A stretch of DNA of 47,147 nucleotides from a phage: the sequence record PZ787336.1. One strand, given 5' to 3'. The notes beneath the pieces are model-generated. The model had not been told where the DNA came from and made no database searches. It saw only the letters and a list, made by a program, of their open reading frames with translations. The position numbers and the translations under genes are program-made. Below are positions 1-47,147 of the stretch, in pieces (positions within the stretch are counted from its first letter, which is position 1; every line of letters begins with the position of its first letter).

Positions 1-584
<584 letters not shown>

Positions 585-585
<1 letters not shown>

Positions 586-9131: not shown

Positions 9132-9323
9132 ATGGCAAACATGTCCTACTGTCGATTTCGTAATACAGAGCAAGACTTCAATGATTGTGTTGATGCAATT
9201 GGCAACATTGAGTCTATTGGTGACTTAAGTAATGCAGAACGCAAGTCTGCTGAGCGCCTGTACCATCTTGCTAATGAGTACGTCGCATATTACGAGCAAT
9301 TATTGGAAGAAAGTGGTGAATGA
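9132..9323 (+). CDS. hypothetical small acidic protein
   Basis: 63 aa ORF tightly packed between neighbours. Confidence 0.5.
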   Translation: MANMSYCRFRNTEQDFNDCVDAIGNIESIGDLSNAERKSAERLYHLANEYVAYYEQLLEESGE

Positions 9324-9324
9324 T

Positions 9325-10134
9325 ATGAAAACACTTAGCAAAATCTATTCAGACAAAGAAACGCGCAACGGAATCGCTGTTAACAAAACCTATCTCGTGC
9401 CAGTGGAGCAAATCTATCTGGAGCCGGGATACAACATCCGCGAAGCAGACGAGCAGCATGTGGAGTATTTCGCGCAGTGCTGGGAATCAGGTCAGCCATT
9501 ACCAGCATTAACAGTTATTCCTGATGAGAAGGGAATCCGCATTCTTGATGGTCAGCATCGCTATCTAGGCGCATTGCGTGCCATTGAGCGTGGCGCACCA
9601 ATTGTTCGTATTGAGTGCAAGGATTTCACAGGAGGCGAAGCAGATAAAATCGCCTTCATGGTGTCGTCCAGTCAGGGTAAGCAGCTTGACCCGTTTGAAC
9701 GCGCAAAGGCTTACACGCGACTGAAGGGTTTTGGCTGGACCAACGAGGAAATCGCCAAGAAGGTAGGGCGCTCAGTTTCTGACGTGCAGATGCACCTGTC
9801 ACTGGGTGATGTGCCAGCCGAAGTAAAAGCGCGAATCAGTGCAGGGCAAATCAGCTATGCAAATGCCGTAGCAGTAACTCGCGAACATGGCGATGATGCG
9901 GTTAAAGTTATCGACGAGGCAGTCGAAGAAGCGAAGGCGCAAGGCAAGGATAAGGTAACGGCGAAGGTGCTTAAGTCGAAAAAGATTAAGCCAGTAGACC
10001 GACTGATTGAGTTACTGAAGCCAGCTGACCACGTTATTCTTCCTGCTGGTCATGTAGTGGCAGAGAATGAGGAGTTTATCCAGATTCCTGTTGCTGATAT
10101 TCACGAGGTGATGGCAATTCTGGAGAAGATGTGA
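9325..10134 (+). CDS. ParB-like nuclease domain protein
   Basis: N-terminal ParB/Srx-like region with the GIRILDGQHRYLGA-type motif; start at ATG 9325 directly after the upstream stop. Confidence 0.7.
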   Translation: MKTLSKIYSDKETRNGIAVNKTYLVPVEQIYLEPGYNIREADEQHVEYFAQCWESGQPLPALTVIPDEKGIRILDGQHRYLGALRAIERGAPIVRIECKDFTGGEADKIAFMVSSSQGKQLDPFERAKAYTRLKGFGWTNEEIAKKVGRSVSDVQMHLSLGDVPAEVKARISAGQISYANAVAVTREHGDDAVKVIDEAVEEAKAQGKDKVTAKVLKSKKIKPVDRLIELLKPADHVILPAGHVVAENEEFIQIPVADIHEVMAILEKM

Positions 10135-21858: not shown

Positions 21859-22946
21859 CTAATTATTCATTATTTCATTCATTAATTCCGGTGAATACTT
21901 TAGCCACTCGGTGCATCCATTGAACCCACTAAGTCCAGCGGACTCATATCTATTATGATAATCGCTCTCCATTGATATTGCATCAACGCCTGAAAGTTTT
22001 ACGTACTTAATCACCTCAAACTCAAATGGCGTACTGCTTCTTAGTTGCATAATGCGTTGCTTTATTTTATTGGTTATCCCCACCTTTATTCCTTTCTCGC
22101 TCATTAGGAAGTAAACATACGATTTCTTATTCTTATCAAATCCTGTTACAGCGCATGATGGACATCCAGAACCTTGTATATGATGTGATGCTCGCTGTAC
22201 GAATACTCCATGGATGGGGCATGTTATTGACACGTTGGAGAGGGAGTTCTTGTAGCCGCACTTATCATAAATGTATTTATCTCCATGGACCGCCATTGAT
22301 TTTCTAGCAAAATCAGCTTCACTATCAGTTTGTGATTTTACTTGCTTGCTCTTACCGCAGGACGGACATCCACATCCAATCAGATGCACTGATGGTTTTT
22401 GCAATAAAACCCCATGAATTTCGCAAAGTATCATTACTTCTTTATTGTTTGCCTCATACTTAACGAGTGAGTAATCATATCTGTCACCATGAATGCCCTT
22501 TGATTTCTCAATAAACAGATCATTGCCAAGAGAATAAGACTTTGCTCTCTTTATGAGTCCGCAGCTAGGGCATCCCTGGCCATGTAAGTGATCTGATGGT
22601 CTTTGTTCAAATTCACCATGTCTTCGACAAACTATTACAACTTTTGATTCGCAATCTTTGTATTTAACTTTCGAGTATTCGTATGTATTAGAATGGATTT
22701 TTTTGCTTTTAATATAAACGATTCTGCATCGCTTCTTTTTGCGTTGCCTCTTCTGATGCACGCACACGCCGGACATCCATTACCAGCTAAATGATTTGAT
22801 GGTGATTGCATAAAATCACCATGCTCGCGACAGGTAATGATGACTTTAGTTTTTGAATTTTTGTAATTAGTCTTTGAATAATCATAACGATCGCCATATC
22901 GACAGATTACTTCAGAGATAAAGCGTGATGTCTTTTCTTTTGACAT
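21859..22946 (-). CDS. homing-endonuclease-like protein with tandem CPxCG zinc-ribbon repeats and C-terminal T5orf172 (GIY-YIG-like) domain, apparent frameshift
   Basis: first repeat unit in ORF 22635..22946, further units and the YVYFLMSEKGIKVGIT...TEW domain in ORF 21859..22776; frames meet at an A7 run (plus T7 at 22698-22704). Confidence 0.6.
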
Positions 22947-41045: not shown

Positions 41046-41552
41046 ATGGCACGCGGCGTAAATAAAGTAATTATTGTCGGCACTCTCGGAAACGACCCTG
41101 AAGTTAAATATTCAGCATCAGGCTCTGCAATTGCCAACCTTTCTGTTGCAACATCTGAGCAGTGGAAAGATAAGCAGACAGGAGAAAAGAAAGAACAGAC
41201 CGAGTGGCATCGCGTGGTCATCTTCGGGAAACTTGCTGAGATTGCAGGCGAATACCTTCGCAAAGGTTCTCAGGTTTATATCGAAGGCCAGCTACGCACT
41301 CGTAAGTGGACTGACAGCAACGGCGTGGACAAATACACCACTGAGATTGTCATTCCGCAGATGGGTGGTGTTATGCAGATGCTTGGTGGTAGACGTGATG
41401 ATTCTGATCAGCAACAACCACGCCAGCAATCAGGACAGCAACCTCAAGGTGGATGGGGGACAAATCCGCAACAACAACAGCCACAAAAACAACAAAGCCC
41501 ACAAGGAGGCAATGAGCCGCCGATTGACTTCGACGACGACATTCCGTTCTGA
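41046..41552 (+). CDS. ssb: single-stranded DNA-binding protein
   Basis: OB-fold N-terminal region, Gln/Pro/Gly-rich linker and acidic C-terminal tail DFDDDIPF. Confidence 0.9.
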
Positions 41553-41561
41553 TGATAAAAC

Positions 41562-41586
41562 AAACCCCGCCTGGGCGGGGTTTTAT
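41562..41586. terminator. bidirectional rho-independent terminator
   Basis: aaaCCCCGCCtgGGCGGGGtttt between convergent ssb and tailspike genes. Confidence 0.7.
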
Positions 41587-41620
41587 ACCTTGACTACTGA
41601 TCTAACCGTACTAGTATTAC

Positions 41621-43888
41621 TCACTTAGACATAACAGCTAATGCTTCCTGCATACGCTTAATAGTACGCCGCATCAACGCAGCCTCTAATATCAGTACTT
41701 CCTCGTAACGAATACCGTAGCGGGAACCTGCTGGTGTAATCAGTTTACGAGAGCCATTGGCATCTTCCTCGTATACATCATCCCAACTGTCGAAGCACAG
41801 GAAGCCATAGCGATGTGCATCTATACCGTGACGTTCGAATGCCTCCTTAGCTCGCTGAGCGATGATGCCGAAGTGCCATCTAGCTGAGTCTGCACCCTTC
41901 TCCTCAATTCGGTACAAGTACTGAAATTGCACAAAGTCAACTTCAGACCAAGCATCCAGTAAAGCATCTGAGATAATAAGAGGCTCTGTTTTATCCCTAG
42001 CATCTGAGACAACAGTGAATGCTGATTGAGTAAAACCGCCAGACCATGCTCGACTTGCGGAACCTAATGCGTATGTATCAGTACTATCTGGGGTCATTGC
42101 ATTAGAACCTAACTGCAAATAACCTGTGCTACTGGTGGGAAGACGCACGTTACCGTTGGTGAGTGATACTGCCCGAGAAGTACCATCAGAAGTAAATAGG
42201 CGAACTTGAGAAGAAGTACCCCCACCTACAGCTAATGACACAGCACCATCCCCAAGCATTCTGTACTTATCAGCCGAGGTAAGAACGCCTGACGGAAGTG
42301 ACATGGACTTAATCCGCCATTCGAACCTACCGGACATACTGCCTATGTACTGTCCTAATGCAGGAGCGTGCACTACGTTGCTATTACTGGTGCCGTCAAT
42401 AGTAACTGCACCTTCAATAGTACCAGCAGCACCGAGAAGGTCGTTTCTCCTTCCCGGATGCTTTACCTCTACGAAGTTACGGGTAGAACCTGATTCGAAA
42501 GTAATAACACCTGTAGCACTGTAGCTAGGAAATACAGACGCATAGTTGTTATTAGCTGTATCTATAAAGCGCGCAATTGTAGCAGTTTGAGCTTGCCCTA
42601 AAGAGTTAGTACCATCACATCCTGACATAAGCACATTGCTTATTACGTTATCAGAGCCTTCTACTGTAACACCGTGAGCCTGACTAGCATCAGAGATTGA
42701 GAAATCTACAAGCACATCTGAGATTAAGTTGGCACTACCTTTGCCTGCAACAACCGCTGCATATTTAGGATTATTAGCCACTACCCCATTGATAAGGTTG
42801 TTAGAGGGAGCTATTGACCCTTCTGTACCGTTGTAAGTTACATGCTGGCAGTCTGCCCCTATAACATTGCTGACTATGTTATAACTGGCTGTACCTTTCA
42901 GTTCTACAGCCCCGAACTGAGGGTAGTCCTTAGCAATGACGTTATTTATGAGGGAGTTAACCGAGGAATCAGCAAGTATGCATCCAGCCGCCTTATTAGC
43001 AGCATAGCCGGAGTAGCTACCTCGAATGCCTTTAATCATAAGCCCATCAGAGGGTGCATCATTAGGGTATGTGATTAAACTGAAACCAATGCCCTTAACG
43101 TTTGAGAAATTAACATCACTTATAGTAACATCACTACCACCAGCAAGAGATACCTGCTGCCCTTGAGTGGTATCGGTCGCCTTATTACTTTCTACCGTAA
43201 TATTACTTAAGCGACCTGAGCGTAGATTGTTAAATACTAAGTAGTTACCTGTACTTGAACGGTGACTTAGTACACCACTGCCTCTACCGTCTAAGTTACA
43301 GTAATTACTATTAATACCAGAACTAGAGAATACACCGTCTGATGCTACGACAGCTTTTTGAGAATTTAGTGAAGCAGCTATATTCTCCGTACTATCCGTT
43401 ACACCATCCCCTTTAGCACCCCAGCCTCGAACATCACCCTCATCACGCCATCTTGCCATCTGCAATTCAGGGTAACTGGACGCACCATCCGGGTCTGAAA
43501 TCTGGCTGCGCAGGGCTGCATCACCAACACTCAACCATTTCCCAATTCCAACACCGCCAGCGGATGCAGGAGCTGAACCAGAAGCGACTGTTTTAGGGAA
43601 TTCACCATCCCAGCGGTAATATTCTCCAGTAGCTTCATAGCGCAAAACCTGATTCGGTAACGTCAGCGTCGCTCCATCTTCAAAACTGTCCATTGTGATG
43701 TAGCCATAATTACGGATTGCTTCTTCTGCGGTGTATTGGAATCCAGCAATTGTCCAGCGGCGTACACCGAAGCGATCGGTATAGTAATGTGCATCAGATG
43801 TCACTACCTCGTCGATCTTACCGGCATTAAATTTCAGGTCGCGCGGGTCTTCTGACGGAATTGGTTTATTGGTTGGTGTGGTAGCCAT
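41621..43888 (-). CDS. tailspike / tail fibre protein with C-terminal intramolecular chaperone (peptidase S74-like) domain
   Basis: 755 aa; Gly/Ser/Asn-rich repetitive beta-helix-like middle region; C-terminal ...DARDKTEPL...FDSWDDVYEE... resembles the autoproteolytic chaperone domain of endosialidase-type tailspikes. Confidence 0.8.
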   Translation of the reverse strand: MATTPTNKPIPSEDPRDLKFNAGKIDEVVTSDAHYYTDRFGVRRWTIAGFQYTAEEAIRNYGYITMDSFEDGATLTLPNQVLRYEATGEYYRWDGEFPKTVASGSAPASAGGVGIGKWLSVGDAALRSQISDPDGASSYPELQMARWRDEGDVRGWGAKGDGVTDSTENIAASLNSQKAVVASDGVFSSSGINSNYCNLDGRGSGVLSHRSSTGNYLVFNNLRSGRLSNITVESNKATDTTQGQQVSLAGGSDVTISDVNFSNVKGIGFSLITYPNDAPSDGLMIKGIRGSYSGYAANKAAGCILADSSVNSLINNVIAKDYPQFGAVELKGTASYNIVSNVIGADCQHVTYNGTEGSIAPSNNLINGVVANNPKYAAVVAGKGSANLISDVLVDFSISDASQAHGVTVEGSDNVISNVLMSGCDGTNSLGQAQTATIARFIDTANNNYASVFPSYSATGVITFESGSTRNFVEVKHPGRRNDLLGAAGTIEGAVTIDGTSNSNVVHAPALGQYIGSMSGRFEWRIKSMSLPSGVLTSADKYRMLGDGAVSLAVGGGTSSQVRLFTSDGTSRAVSLTNGNVRLPTSSTGYLQLGSNAMTPDSTDTYALGSASRAWSGGFTQSAFTVVSDARDKTEPLIISDALLDAWSEVDFVQFQYLYRIEEKGADSARWHFGIIAQRAKEAFERHGIDAHRYGFLCFDSWDDVYEEDANGSRKLITPAGSRYGIRYEEVLILEAALMRRTIKRMQEALAVMSK

Positions 43889-43927
43889 TATAATAAATGC
43901 TCCTTTGTGAATTTGATGTATATTGTA

Positions 43928-47147
<3,220 letters not shown>

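What the first reader, a model, noticed from the sequence alone, without database searches (positions are those of the whole stretch)
41621..43888. Tailspike with an endosialidase-type C-terminal chaperone domain: likely capsule or polysaccharide specificity
The 755-aa protein ends in a domain resembling the self-cleaving intramolecular chaperone of endosialidase and T5-type fibres. Its repetitive Gly/Ser/Asn-rich centre is consistent with a beta-helix depolymerase. It is separate from the J-like tip protein, so the phage probably uses two receptor-binding devices.
Basis: partly seen in the sequence, partly recalled or inferred. Interest (0 to 1): 0.4.

Follow-up and report, generated by a model that had tools for sequence, protein, structure and literature searches.

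The report
K5 capsule lyase tailspike on siphophage
This gene encodes an ordinary, well-understood phage tailspike, a K5 (heparosan) capsule lyase about 92% identical to a crystallised enzyme; here it is grafted onto the tail-anchoring end used by an Sf11-like long-tailed phage, which marks the host as K5-encapsulated E. coli.

Summary
It can be named more precisely as a KflA-type K5 capsule (heparosan) lyase tailspike.

- **Lyase:** residues 155-628 match the solved K5A lyase 2x3h (E 1.7e-276, 92% identity).
- **Chaperone:** residues 628-755 are a Peptidase_S74 self-cleaving chaperone. Its Ser628/Lys633 dyad is invariant in 32 homologues.
- **Anchor:** residues 1-135 match the tailspike anchor of Shigella siphophage Sf11 (9occ). 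In Sf11, three N-terminal helices bundle with an adaptor helix of the distal tail protein, and that helix is conserved in this window.

The gene is a mosaic. A cassette of about 2 kb (about 41557-43542) is 98% identical to the K5 lyase gene of N4-like podoviruses (UE-S5b). It joins the siphovirus backbone inside a conserved linker-coding stretch at the 5' end and inside a shared terminator hairpin at the 3' end.

The same 755-aa chimera, at 95-96% identity, already exists in unnamed metagenomic phage contigs. It is not in any phage genome record of the 'phages' collection searched.

The 'two receptor devices' idea is plausible but not shown. Verdict: supported, a new member of a known kind, of low interest.

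The parts
41621..43888 (-). Complete tailspike gene, 755 aa plus stop codon: K5 (heparosan) lyase tailspike precursor
   Evidence: ORF list. PHROG 14895 'tail spike protein' at E=0, matching residues 121-755. PDB matches 9vvr, 2x3h and 9occ.
43900..43905 (-). AAGGAG ribosome-binding site, 11 nt upstream of the ATG
   Evidence: Read directly from the sequence.
43709..43888 (-). Residues 1-60: N-terminal virion-anchor helices, including Arg16 and Lys19. By homology these form a bundle with the adaptor helix of the distal tail protein.
   Evidence: 9occ_G (Sf11 gp13) aligns to residues 1-135 at E 3.4e-70. The AF2 model superposes on the 9occ spike chains with TM 0.91-0.96 and rmsd 0.6-0.8 A. The assembly is described in PMC12724387.
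43520..43702 (-). Residues 63-123: Tail_spike_N domain (PF18668)
   Evidence: Pfam E 2.6e-16, 59.9 bits against a cut-off of 25. It also matches CBA120 TSP1/3/4 and G7C gp63.1.
43518..43542 (-). 5' recombination junction, codons about 116-124 (GKWLSVGDA). Homology to the siphovirus backbone ends here and the 98% identity to the podoviral K5 lyase gene begins.
   Evidence: blastn end points and 30-nt identity bins.
43427..43519 (-). Residues 124-154: helical neck or linker, shared with the Kayfunavirus and Gamaleyavirus K5 spikes
   Evidence: Helices 124-156 in the model. Identity of 87-100% to the 843-aa and 784-aa spikes in this segment.
42449..43426 (-). Residues 155-480: single-stranded right-handed parallel beta-helix, the lyase catalytic domain
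   Evidence: 2x3h aligns to residues 155-628 at E 1.7e-276. pLDDT is 81-97 with regular strand rungs. Foldseek top hit is 2x3h at 92% identity.
42833..42904 (-). Codons for Glu329, Lys331 and Tyr352, which correspond to KflA Glu206, Lys208 and Tyr229, the proposed catalytic residues. The KflA residue numbers come from my memory of Thompson et al. 2010.
   Evidence: The residues sit at an offset of 123. They are conserved in 23 of the 24 K5-lyase-type homologues, including those only about 50% identical; one has Thr in place of Tyr352. Only two of the eight unrelated spikes keep the Tyr, and one of those keeps all three residues.
42008..42448 (-). Residues 481-627: C-terminal stalk of the mature spike, an intertwined triple-beta-helix region in the trimer
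   Evidence: Aligned to the C-terminal part of 2x3h. The monomer model has low confidence here, as expected for an intertwined trimer. [quoted passage not shown]
41624..42007 (-). Residues 628-755: Peptidase_S74 intramolecular chaperone, with nucleophile Ser628 and general base Lys633 (SDARDK)
   Evidence: Pfam. PDB matches 3gud, 3gw6 and 4uw8. Ser628 and Lys633 are invariant in 32 homologues. The 2x3h chain ends at the aligned Ser.
41562..41583 (.). Bidirectional terminator hairpin between the convergent spike and ssb genes. It is also the 3' recombination junction.
   Evidence: Terminator scan. Fold energies of -19 and -15.2 kcal/mol, z -4.5 and -2.8. The hairpin is shared by UE-S5b and by the siphovirus backbone HC6.
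41557..43542 (-). Exchanged cassette: linker, lyase, chaperone, 3'UTR and terminator. It is 98% identical to the K5 lyase gene of the N4-like Escherichia phage UE-S5b.
   Evidence: megablast, blastn end points and alignment.
112..585 (-). Distal tail protein (157 aa), carrying the adaptor helix to which the spike is expected to dock
   Evidence: 9occ_C (Sf11 gp17) aligns 1-155 to 1-155 at E 1.6e-99. Glu129, Glu136 and Glu147 are kept, and Glu152 is replaced by Asp. Their role is described in PMC12724387.
43928..46417 (-). Baseplate hub 2, the J-like central tail-tip protein (829 aa), directly upstream of the spike gene
   Evidence: 9occ_E (Sf11 gp14) aligns full length, E=0, 1765 bits. PHROG 469 'tail protein'.

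Best explanation
The gene encodes the precursor of a trimeric tailspike whose enzyme is a KflA-type K5 lyase.

**Shown by sequence or structure comparison**
- Residues 1-60 are the helices that anchor Sf11-type spikes to the siphovirus tail.
- Residues 63-123 are a Tail_spike_N domain.
- Residues 155-480 are a right-handed parallel beta-helix about 92% identical to the crystallised K5A lyase. They keep Glu329, Lys331 and Tyr352.
- Residues 481-627 are the stalk region.
- Residues 628-755 are a Peptidase_S74 chaperone with a Ser628/Lys633 dyad.

**Inferred mechanism**
1. Three chains fold together, with the C-terminal chaperone domains nucleating the intertwined stalk.
2. Once the trimer is correct, Ser628, activated by Lys633, cuts the chain at Ser628 and the 127- or 128-residue chaperone is released.
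3. Six mature trimers dock on the hexameric distal tail protein (112..585). Each spike's three N-terminal helices bundle with one adaptor helix of that protein.
4. On a K5-encapsulated E. coli cell, the spikes bind heparosan [-4)-GlcA-beta(1,4)-GlcNAc-alpha(1-] and cut it by beta-elimination. This tunnels the tail tip through the capsule to the outer membrane.

**Evolution**
The lyase-chaperone-terminator cassette was exchanged between an N4-like podovirus lineage and this Sf11-like (Deseoctovirus/Shuimuvirus-like) siphovirus. The exchange used homologous recombination in a conserved linker-coding stretch and in a shared terminator hairpin. The direction of transfer is unknown.
For: - **ORF and ribosome-binding site:**
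- **Lyase homology:** 2x3h 'K5 lyase' aligns to residues 155-628 at E 1.7e-276, and the 9vvr tail spike aligns to residues 61-755 at E=0. Seventy-four phage records match, and several are annotated as K5 lyase, including K5 (Y10025), K1-5 and UE-S5b.
- **Fold:** the AF2 model has pLDDT 81-97 across the beta-helix. Its top Foldseek hit is 2x3h at E 4.5e-51 and 92% identity, followed by other beta-helix enzymes.
- **Catalytic residues:** Glu329, Lys331 and Tyr352 are conserved in 23 of the 24 K5-lyase-type homologues, down to about 50% identity; one has Thr at position 352. Most unrelated spikes lack them.
- **Chaperone:** S74 scores above its gathering threshold. Ser628 and Lys633 are invariant. 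The Ser plus Lys(+5) mechanism and the scissile bond are described for T5 pb1 and K1F in PMC4690869.
- **Anchor:** Sf11 gp13 aligns to residues 1-135 at E 3.4e-70 and superposes at 0.6-0.8 A. The Sf11 gp17 adaptor helix is conserved in the window's distal tail protein. The four-helix bundle, the Arg16/Lys19 salt bridges and the count of six trimers per virion come from PMC12724387.
- **Mosaic structure:**
- **Terminator:**
- **Biochemistry:** K5 lyase activity and the heparosan structure are described in PMC5380687 and PMC7885116.
Against: - No experiment supports activity, cleavage or assembly for this particular protein.
- The KflA catalytic residue numbers (Glu206, Lys208, Tyr229) come from my memory of Thompson et al. 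2010. I could not read that paper and no held paper confirmed the numbers.
- The window protein has about 8% substitutions relative to 2x3h, and their effect on fine specificity is untested.
- The residue before the scissile Ser is Val here and Thr in 2x3h, although the solved 9vvr spike also has Val.
- The monomer model is poor for residues 481-634, so the triple-beta-helix stalk rests on homology alone.
- The window's distal tail protein lacks the roughly 300-residue C-terminal appendage of Sf11 gp17, so the docking geometry may differ in detail.
Confidence: 0.9

Rival explanations
1. The spike is a K5-lyase relative whose specificity has drifted. It might recognise a different capsule or O-antigen, or bind heparosan without cutting it.
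For: About 8% of residues differ from 2x3h. Tailspike specificity can change with few substitutions. In phage ES17, a fibre with a K5-lyase-like binding domain binds heparan sulfate (PMC7885116).
Against: Identity to spikes of phages annotated as K5 lyase is 92-98% over the whole catalytic domain. The Glu329/Lys331/Tyr352 stretch is identical to 2x3h. It is also conserved in 23 of the 24 K5-lyase-type homologues, down to about 50% identity.
Confidence: 0.06
2. The spike is an endosialidase-type (K1, polysialic acid) spike, as the domain name 'chaperone of endosialidase' might suggest.
For: The S74 domain matches 3gw6 from the K1F endosialidase. A close backbone relative, ST1UNAM, annotates its spike as endo-N-acetylneuraminidase.
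Against: No endosialidase beta-propeller, beta-barrel or stalk Pfam domain was found (PF12217, PF12218, PF12219, PF12195). Real siphoviral endosialidase spikes of 983 aa in the database do carry these domains. The central domain is a K5 lyase. The similarity to endosialidase is confined to the chaperone.
Confidence: 0.01
3. The protein is a non-enzymatic fibre, or a chromosomal or prophage ElmA-type lyase, rather than a virion spike of a lytic phage.
For: T5 pb1 carries the same chaperone without any enzyme activity (PMC4690869). E. coli proteins of 820 aa annotated 'phage tail protein' are 54-55% identical.
Against: There is no near-identical DNA in 5,426 complete E. coli genomes. The gene sits in a tail module of a 47-kb virulent-type siphovirus genome, next to the hub and distal tail protein genes. 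The catalytic domain is KflA-like at 92% identity, against about 55% for the 820-aa proteins.
Confidence: 0.02

Closest known systems
KflA, the K5 lyase tailspike of coliphage K5A (PDB 2x3h), and ORF46 of phage K1-5
   Same: The catalytic beta-helix, the stalk and the S74 chaperone are shared. Identity is about 92% over residues 155-628, and the Glu-x-Lys...Tyr stretch is identical. The substrate (K5 heparosan) and the beta-elimination mechanism are expected to be the same (PMC5380687).
   Different: KflA is 632 aa and attaches through a short N-terminal peptide to the adapter protein of an SP6-like podovirus (PMC5380687). The window protein instead has a 154-residue N-terminal part (anchor helices, Tail_spike_N domain and neck) of siphovirus type. 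DNA homology to K5 and K1-5 starts only at gene nt 498.
K5 lyase of N4-like Gamaleyavirus phages UE-S5b, UE-S5a, UE-M3 and UE-M6 (784 aa)
   Same: DNA identity is 98% from gene nt 347 to the stop codon and on through the 3'UTR and terminator hairpin. Both have Tail_spike_N and S74 domains.
   Different: The first 115 residues or so are unrelated: 15% identity in residues 1-60 and 51% in 61-123. Those phages are Schitoviridae podoviruses that also carry an endosialidase gene next to the lyase. The window lacks 44 nt of their 3'UTR.
Kayfunavirus (T7-like) 843-aa tail fibre/K5 lyase fusion (PDB 9vvr; IME177 and others)
   Same: It aligns to residues 61-755 at E=0. DNA identity is 92-93% from gene nt 261 onward. 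The linker, lyase and chaperone are the same.
   Different: It has a T7 gp17-type N-terminus (PF03906) instead of the siphoviral anchor.
Tailspike gp13 of Shigella siphophage Sf11 (PDB 9occ)
   Same: The N-terminal 135 residues match at E 3.4e-70, with Arg16 and Lys19 kept. The partner proteins are also shared: the distal tail protein adaptor helix and hub gp14. The gene order, hub followed by spike, is the same. The mode of attachment is therefore presumably the same (PMC12724387).
   Different: In Sf11, gp13 continues as an Sf6/P22-like O-antigen endorhamnosidase of 585 aa; no similarity was found beyond residue 135. Here the receptor-binding part is a capsule lyase with an S74 chaperone. 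The Sf11 distal tail protein is 457 aa, against 157 aa here.
Uncultured 755/756-aa spikes in metagenomic and MAG phage contigs (e.g. NCBI UVM87448.1, 'MAG: pectate lyase superfamily protein [Bacteriophage sp.]')
   Same: They have the same full-length architecture at 95-96% identity, on 47-48 kb contigs with the same tail gene order.
   Different: They are not identical, and the window's exact sequence is not in the collection. Identity varies segment by segment, for example 79-100% in residues 61-123, which shows further recombination. Some sit beside a different replication module. None is annotated as a K5 lyase.

Membership tests
KflA-type K5 (heparosan) lyase tailspike | Sequence homology across the whole catalytic domain to the characterised KflA | tested here: met
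   2x3h aligns to residues 155-628 at E 1.7e-276, with 92% identity over 470 columns.
KflA-type K5 (heparosan) lyase tailspike | Single-stranded right-handed parallel beta-helix fold | tested here: met
   The AF2 model has regular strand rungs over residues 161-475 with pLDDT 81-97. Foldseek's top hit is 2x3h, followed by beta-helical spikes, polygalacturonases and C5-epimerases.
KflA-type K5 (heparosan) lyase tailspike | Proposed catalytic residues (KflA Glu206, Lys208, Tyr229; numbering recalled from Thompson et al. 2010, which I could not read here) | tested here: met
   Glu329, Lys331 and Tyr352 sit at an offset of 123. The stretch is identical to 2x3h and conserved in 23 of the 24 K5-lyase-type homologues.
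KflA-type K5 (heparosan) lyase tailspike | Beta-eliminative cleavage of K5 polysaccharide, and K5-dependent infection | not testable with these tools
   This needs an enzyme assay and host-range tests.
Peptidase S74 / C-terminal intramolecular chaperone domain | Profile match above the curated threshold | tested here: met
   PF13884 at E 2.8e-13, 50.4 bits against a cut-off of 22, residues 628-688. Matches to 3gud, 3gw6 and 4uw8.
Peptidase S74 / C-terminal intramolecular chaperone domain | Ser nucleophile with Lys five residues downstream (S-D-x-R-x-K) | tested here: met
   The sequence is S628-D-A-R-D-K633. Both residues are invariant in 32 homologues. The motif's role is described in PMC4690869.
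Peptidase S74 / C-terminal intramolecular chaperone domain | Preceded by an intertwined trimeric (triple-beta-helix) stalk whose correct folding licenses cleavage | tested here: inconclusive
   The monomer model has low confidence for residues 481-634. The feature is supported only by about 95% identity to the corresponding part of 2x3h and 9vvr and by the description of KflA in PMC8822698.
Peptidase S74 / C-terminal intramolecular chaperone domain | Actual autoproteolytic release of the domain | not testable with these tools
   The evidence is indirect. The crystallised 2x3h chain ends at the Ser aligned with Ser628, and the 3gud chain begins at it.
Sf11-type siphophage tailspike attachment | N-terminal helices (gp13 residues 4-59) with Arg16 and Lys19 | tested here: met
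   9occ_G aligns 1-135 at E 3.4e-70, with R16 and K19 present. Superposition gives TM 0.91-0.96 and rmsd 0.6-0.8 A.
Sf11-type siphophage tailspike attachment | Distal tail protein with the acidic adaptor helix (Glu129, Glu136, Glu147, Glu152) | tested here: met
   The window's 157-aa distal tail protein aligns to gp17 residues 1-155 at E 1.6e-99. E129, E136 and E147 are identical, and E152 is replaced by Asp.
Sf11-type siphophage tailspike attachment | Six spike trimers physically mounted on the distal tail protein ring | not testable with these tools
   This needs electron microscopy or mass spectrometry of virions.
Endosialidase (K1-specific) tailspike | Sialidase beta-propeller, beta-barrel and stalk domains (PF12217, PF12218, PF12219, PF12195) | tested here: not met
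   None of these was found at E up to 0.1. They are present in the 983-aa siphoviral spikes.

The most novel reading that the evidence does not exclude
K5 heparosan is chemically the unsulfated precursor of heparan sulfate, and K5 lyase cuts unsulfated heparan sulfate domains in vitro (cited in PMC7885116). The six spikes of this siphovirus could therefore also bind, or nibble, host mucosal heparan sulfate. That would hold the phage at the epithelium where K5 E. coli live, as proposed for podophage ES17. In that case the K5 cassette, with its own terminator, would be a portable 'mucosa-targeting' module that spreads across phage families.
Probability: 0.12. Interest if true: 0.5.

Novelty: new member of a known kind. 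Interest (0 to 1): 0.2.

Why it matters
**Practical value**
- The gene names the likely host receptor: the K5 capsule found on uropathogenic E. coli, and on the probiotic Nissle 1917 according to PMC4366286 and PMC6895014. That helps host prediction and the choice or avoidance of phages for therapy.

**Conceptual value**
- The gene is a clean example of spike modularity. The same lyase-chaperone-terminator cassette sits on the SP6-like K5 and K1-5 podoviruses (and on records named Vectrevirus), T7-like (Kayfunavirus), N4-like (Gamaleyavirus) and now Sf11-like siphovirus anchors.
- The crossover points can be mapped to a conserved linker and a shared terminator.
- Together with the recent Sf11 tail structure, this supports the idea that the adaptor helix of the distal tail protein is a generic socket for swapping spikes. 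That is useful for engineering host range.

None of this is surprising to a specialist.

Tried and rejected
- **Primary KflA papers.** I tried to read the structure paper (Thompson 2010, by DOI and as PMC2911314) and the specificity paper (PMC3505012). Neither is held.
- **Catalytic residue numbers.** A text search for Glu206, Lys208 and Tyr229 together with 'K5 lyase' found nothing relevant. A search for KflA plus heparinase II gave only the ES17 paper. The residue numbers therefore stay marked as recalled from memory.
- **Backbone family.** I first took the backbone for Guernseyvirinae. The taxonomy lines of the relatives show Deseoctovirus and Shuimuvirus instead, so I corrected this.
- **K1-to-K5 swap.** I considered a K1-to-K5 swap on one backbone, because ST1UNAM annotates its spike as an endosialidase. 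The HC6 and ST1UNAM spikes have no endosialidase domain, and residues about 150-610 have no solved homologue. Their specificity is unknown and I dropped the claim.
- **Prophage or ElmA origin.** There is no match in complete E. coli genomes.
- **Where the chimera occurs.** Phage genome records cover at most 89% of the gene. IMG/VR holds no full-length high-identity copy. Logan, ENA and NCBI MAG data do hold it.
- **Literature.** A search for a K5-lyase siphovirus (Deseoctovirus, Shuimuvirus, K5) found none.
Full report
**1.

A 755-aa ORF runs from an ATG at 43888 to a stop at 41621 on the minus strand. An AAGGAG ribosome-binding site lies 11 nt upstream. The gene follows the 829-aa J-like gene (43928..46417) and converges on ssb (41046..41552).

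- Pfam finds Tail_spike_N (residues 63-123, E 2.6e-16) and Peptidase_S74 (residues 628-688, E 2.8e-13). Both score above their gathering thresholds.
- PHROGs places residues 121-755 in 'tail spike protein' phrog_14895 at E=0.
- The centre is moderately rich in Gly, Ser and Asn (12%, 14% and 8%).

**2. What it is**

A search of solved structures resolves the protein into three known pieces.

| Residues | Match | E-value |
|---|---|---|
| 1-135 | gp13, the tailspike of Shigella siphophage Sf11 (9occ) | 3.4e-70 |
| 61-755 | an 843-aa tail spike (9vvr) | 0 |
| 155-628 | 'K5 lyase' of coliphage K5A (2x3h) | 1.7e-276 |

The chaperone region also matches 3gud (phi29 gp12), 3gw6 (K1F endosialidase chaperone) and 4uw8 (T5 pb1).

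An AlphaFold2 model built from 32 homologues has mean pLDDT 74.5. It is confident (81-97) for regular beta-strand rungs over residues 161-475. It is poor for residues 481-634, as expected when a monomer is used to model an intertwined trimer.

Foldseek returns the following:
- 2x3h first, at E 4.5e-51 and 92% identity;
- then CBA120 spikes, polygalacturonases and mannuronan C5-epimerases, all beta-helices;
- the three chaperone structures;
- the Sf11 spike N-terminal helices, with TM 0.91-0.96 and rmsd 0.6-0.8 A.

The enzyme is specifically a KflA-type K5 (heparosan) lyase. Phage records under the match are annotated as K5 lyase in K5 (Y10025), K1-5 and the UE-S5/UE-M phages. No endosialidase catalytic domain is present.

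**3. Active sites**

With an offset of 123 between KflA and the window protein, KflA Glu206, Lys208 and Tyr229 fall on Glu329, Lys331 and Tyr352. I recall those residue numbers from Thompson et al. 2010, but the paper was not available here.

- That stretch is identical to 2x3h.
- The three residues are conserved in 23 of the 24 K5-lyase-type homologues, including the 778-901-aa proteins that are only about 50% identical; one homologue has Thr in place of Tyr352.
- They are mostly not conserved in unrelated spikes that share only the N- and C-terminal modules.

In the chaperone, S628-D-A-R-D-K633 reproduces the Ser plus Lys(+5) dyad. Both residues are invariant across the alignment.

For T5 pb1 and K1F, the Ser is the nucleophile and is activated by the Lys. 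The bond before the Ser is cut, and an Arg from a neighbouring chain makes cleavage depend on correct trimer folding (PMC4690869). The 2x3h chain ends with the aligned Ser, whereas 3gud begins with it. The cut is therefore at Ser628, and I leave open on which side.

**4. How it is mounted**

The window is a complete, circularly permuted genome of 47.1 kb. The 156-aa hub-1 gene wraps around its ends. The siphovirus gene set includes tape measure, major tail, portal and terminase genes.

The backbone is 89-97% identical to HC6, 6947, ST1UNAM, DS8 and IME207. Of the two related genomes whose taxonomy line I read, C1 is a Deseoctovirus and IME207 a Shuimuvirus.

The tail-tip proteins are those of Sf11:
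- the hub (829 aa) matches gp14 over its full length;
- the 157-aa distal tail protein matches gp17 residues 1-155 at E 1.6e-99.

In the Sf11 cryo-EM structure, the three N-terminal helices of a spike trimer (residues 4-59) bundle with one adaptor helix of the distal tail protein. Salt bridges link Glu129, Glu136, Glu147 and Glu152 of that protein with Arg16 and Lys19 of the spike. Six trimers sit on each virion (PMC12724387).

The window keeps Arg16 and Lys19. It also keeps Glu129, Glu136 and Glu147, and has Asp at position 152. I therefore infer the same attachment.

**5. Mosaic origin**

Homology to the siphovirus backbone runs from the hub gene into the spike gene and stops at window position 43518 (gene nt 371). 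It resumes at 41583.

Identity to the K5 lyase gene of the N4-like Gamaleyavirus UE-S5b is 98% from 43542 to 41594, and continues to 41557. Thirty-nucleotide bins show the switch at gene nt about 347-390.

- The 5' junction therefore lies in the coding sequence for GKWLSVGDA, at the end of the Tail_spike_N domain.
- The 3' junction lies in a GC-rich hairpin (41562-41583; -19 kcal/mol, z -4.5). This hairpin is a plausible bidirectional terminator for the spike and ssb genes. It is present both downstream of the podoviral lyase gene and in the siphovirus backbone.
- The window lacks 44 nt of 3'UTR that UE-S5b and the metagenomic relatives retain.

The closest backbone relatives, HC6 and ST1UNAM, carry an 859-aa spike at the same position. 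It has the same anchor (84% identity over residues 1-135), an unrelated centre with no solved homologue, and a 33%-identical chaperone.

Segment-wise identities show that the anchor, the Tail_spike_N domain, the neck, the lyase and the chaperone each have their own history.

**6. Is it new?**

The enzyme is not new. The siphoviral chimera is missing from several collections:
- phage genome records, where the best coverage is 89%, from Kayfunavirus;
- IMG/VR;
- complete E. coli genomes.

I also found no paper describing a K5-lyase siphovirus.

However, 755/756-aa proteins with 95-96% identity exist in Logan, ENA and NCBI MAG data. They sit on 47-48 kb contigs with the same tail gene order. NCBI names them only 'pectate lyase superfamily protein [Bacteriophage sp.]' or 'tail fiber domain-containing protein'. 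The window's exact sequence is not in that collection.

This is a new member of a known kind.

**7. The 'two devices' claim**

The spike and the hub are indeed separate proteins. No receptor is known for the Sf11-type hub, and ompA, ompC and ompF deletions did not affect Sf11. A second receptor-binding device is therefore a reasonable inference, not a finding.

**8. Verdict**

Confidence that this is a self-processing K5 heparosan lyase tailspike mounted Sf11-style is about 0.9. Interest is low, at about 0.2.

The most novel reading not excluded is that these spikes also target host heparan sulfate in the gut, as proposed for ES17. I put its probability at about 0.12.

Noticed in passing
window 46789..47147 joined to 1..112 (minus strand): The window appears to be a complete, circularly permuted genome. 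The 156-aa baseplate-hub-1 gene is split by the window ends: 359 nt at the end plus 112 nt at the start make 471 nt, the length of the gene in HC6.
   Followed up: partly
window 112..585 (minus strand): The distal tail protein is 157 aa. It stops just after the adaptor helix, whereas Sf11 gp17 continues for about 300 more residues (457 aa, described as a 'large extra appendage'). HC6 and the metagenomic relatives also have the short form. What the appendage does, and why it is dispensable, remains open.
   Followed up: partly
window about 41594 (between the spike stop codon and the terminator): There is a 44-nt deletion in the spike 3'UTR relative to UE-S5b and to the metagenomic siphoviral K5-lyase loci L005 and L006.
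   Followed up: yes
L001 6001..8580 (HC6) and L002 6001..8580 (ST1UNAM): The 859-aa spike of the closest backbone relatives is annotated 'endo-N-acetylneuraminidase' in ST1UNAM. It has no endosialidase Pfam domain, and residues about 150-610 have no solved homologue. The name probably comes from the 'chaperone of endosialidase' domain. Its receptor specificity is unknown.
   Followed up: partly
L006 6509..14281 and L007: The same 756-aa K5-lyase spike and tail-tip genes sit next to a different replication module from the window's (DEAD helicase, Sipho_Gp157, AAA_24, Prim-Pol). The tail module and the replication module therefore assort independently.
   Followed up: no
window 43928..46417 (minus strand), N-terminal about 80 residues: The hub protein begins with a ubiquitin-like segment, annotated MoaD/ThiS in ST1UNAM. 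Sf11 gp14 was modelled only from residue 81. It resembles a lambda gpI-like domain fused to a J-like protein.
   Followed up: no
window 46347..46913 (minus strand): This is an NlpC/P60 (lambda gpK-like) protein. The longest ORF is 188 aa, but relatives annotate 149 aa. The real start is probably internal, and the ORF overlaps both neighbouring genes.
   Followed up: no
window 9232..10134 (+) and 21859..22776 (-): A ParB-like protein and an HNH endonuclease are encoded in this lytic-type siphovirus genome.
   Followed up: no
L003 1..3384 (UE-S5b): The N4-like phages that carry the near-identical K5 lyase gene have an endosialidase gene immediately upstream. They look like dual K1/K5 phages, analogous to K1-5. 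The window phage has only the one spike gene at this locus.
   Followed up: no
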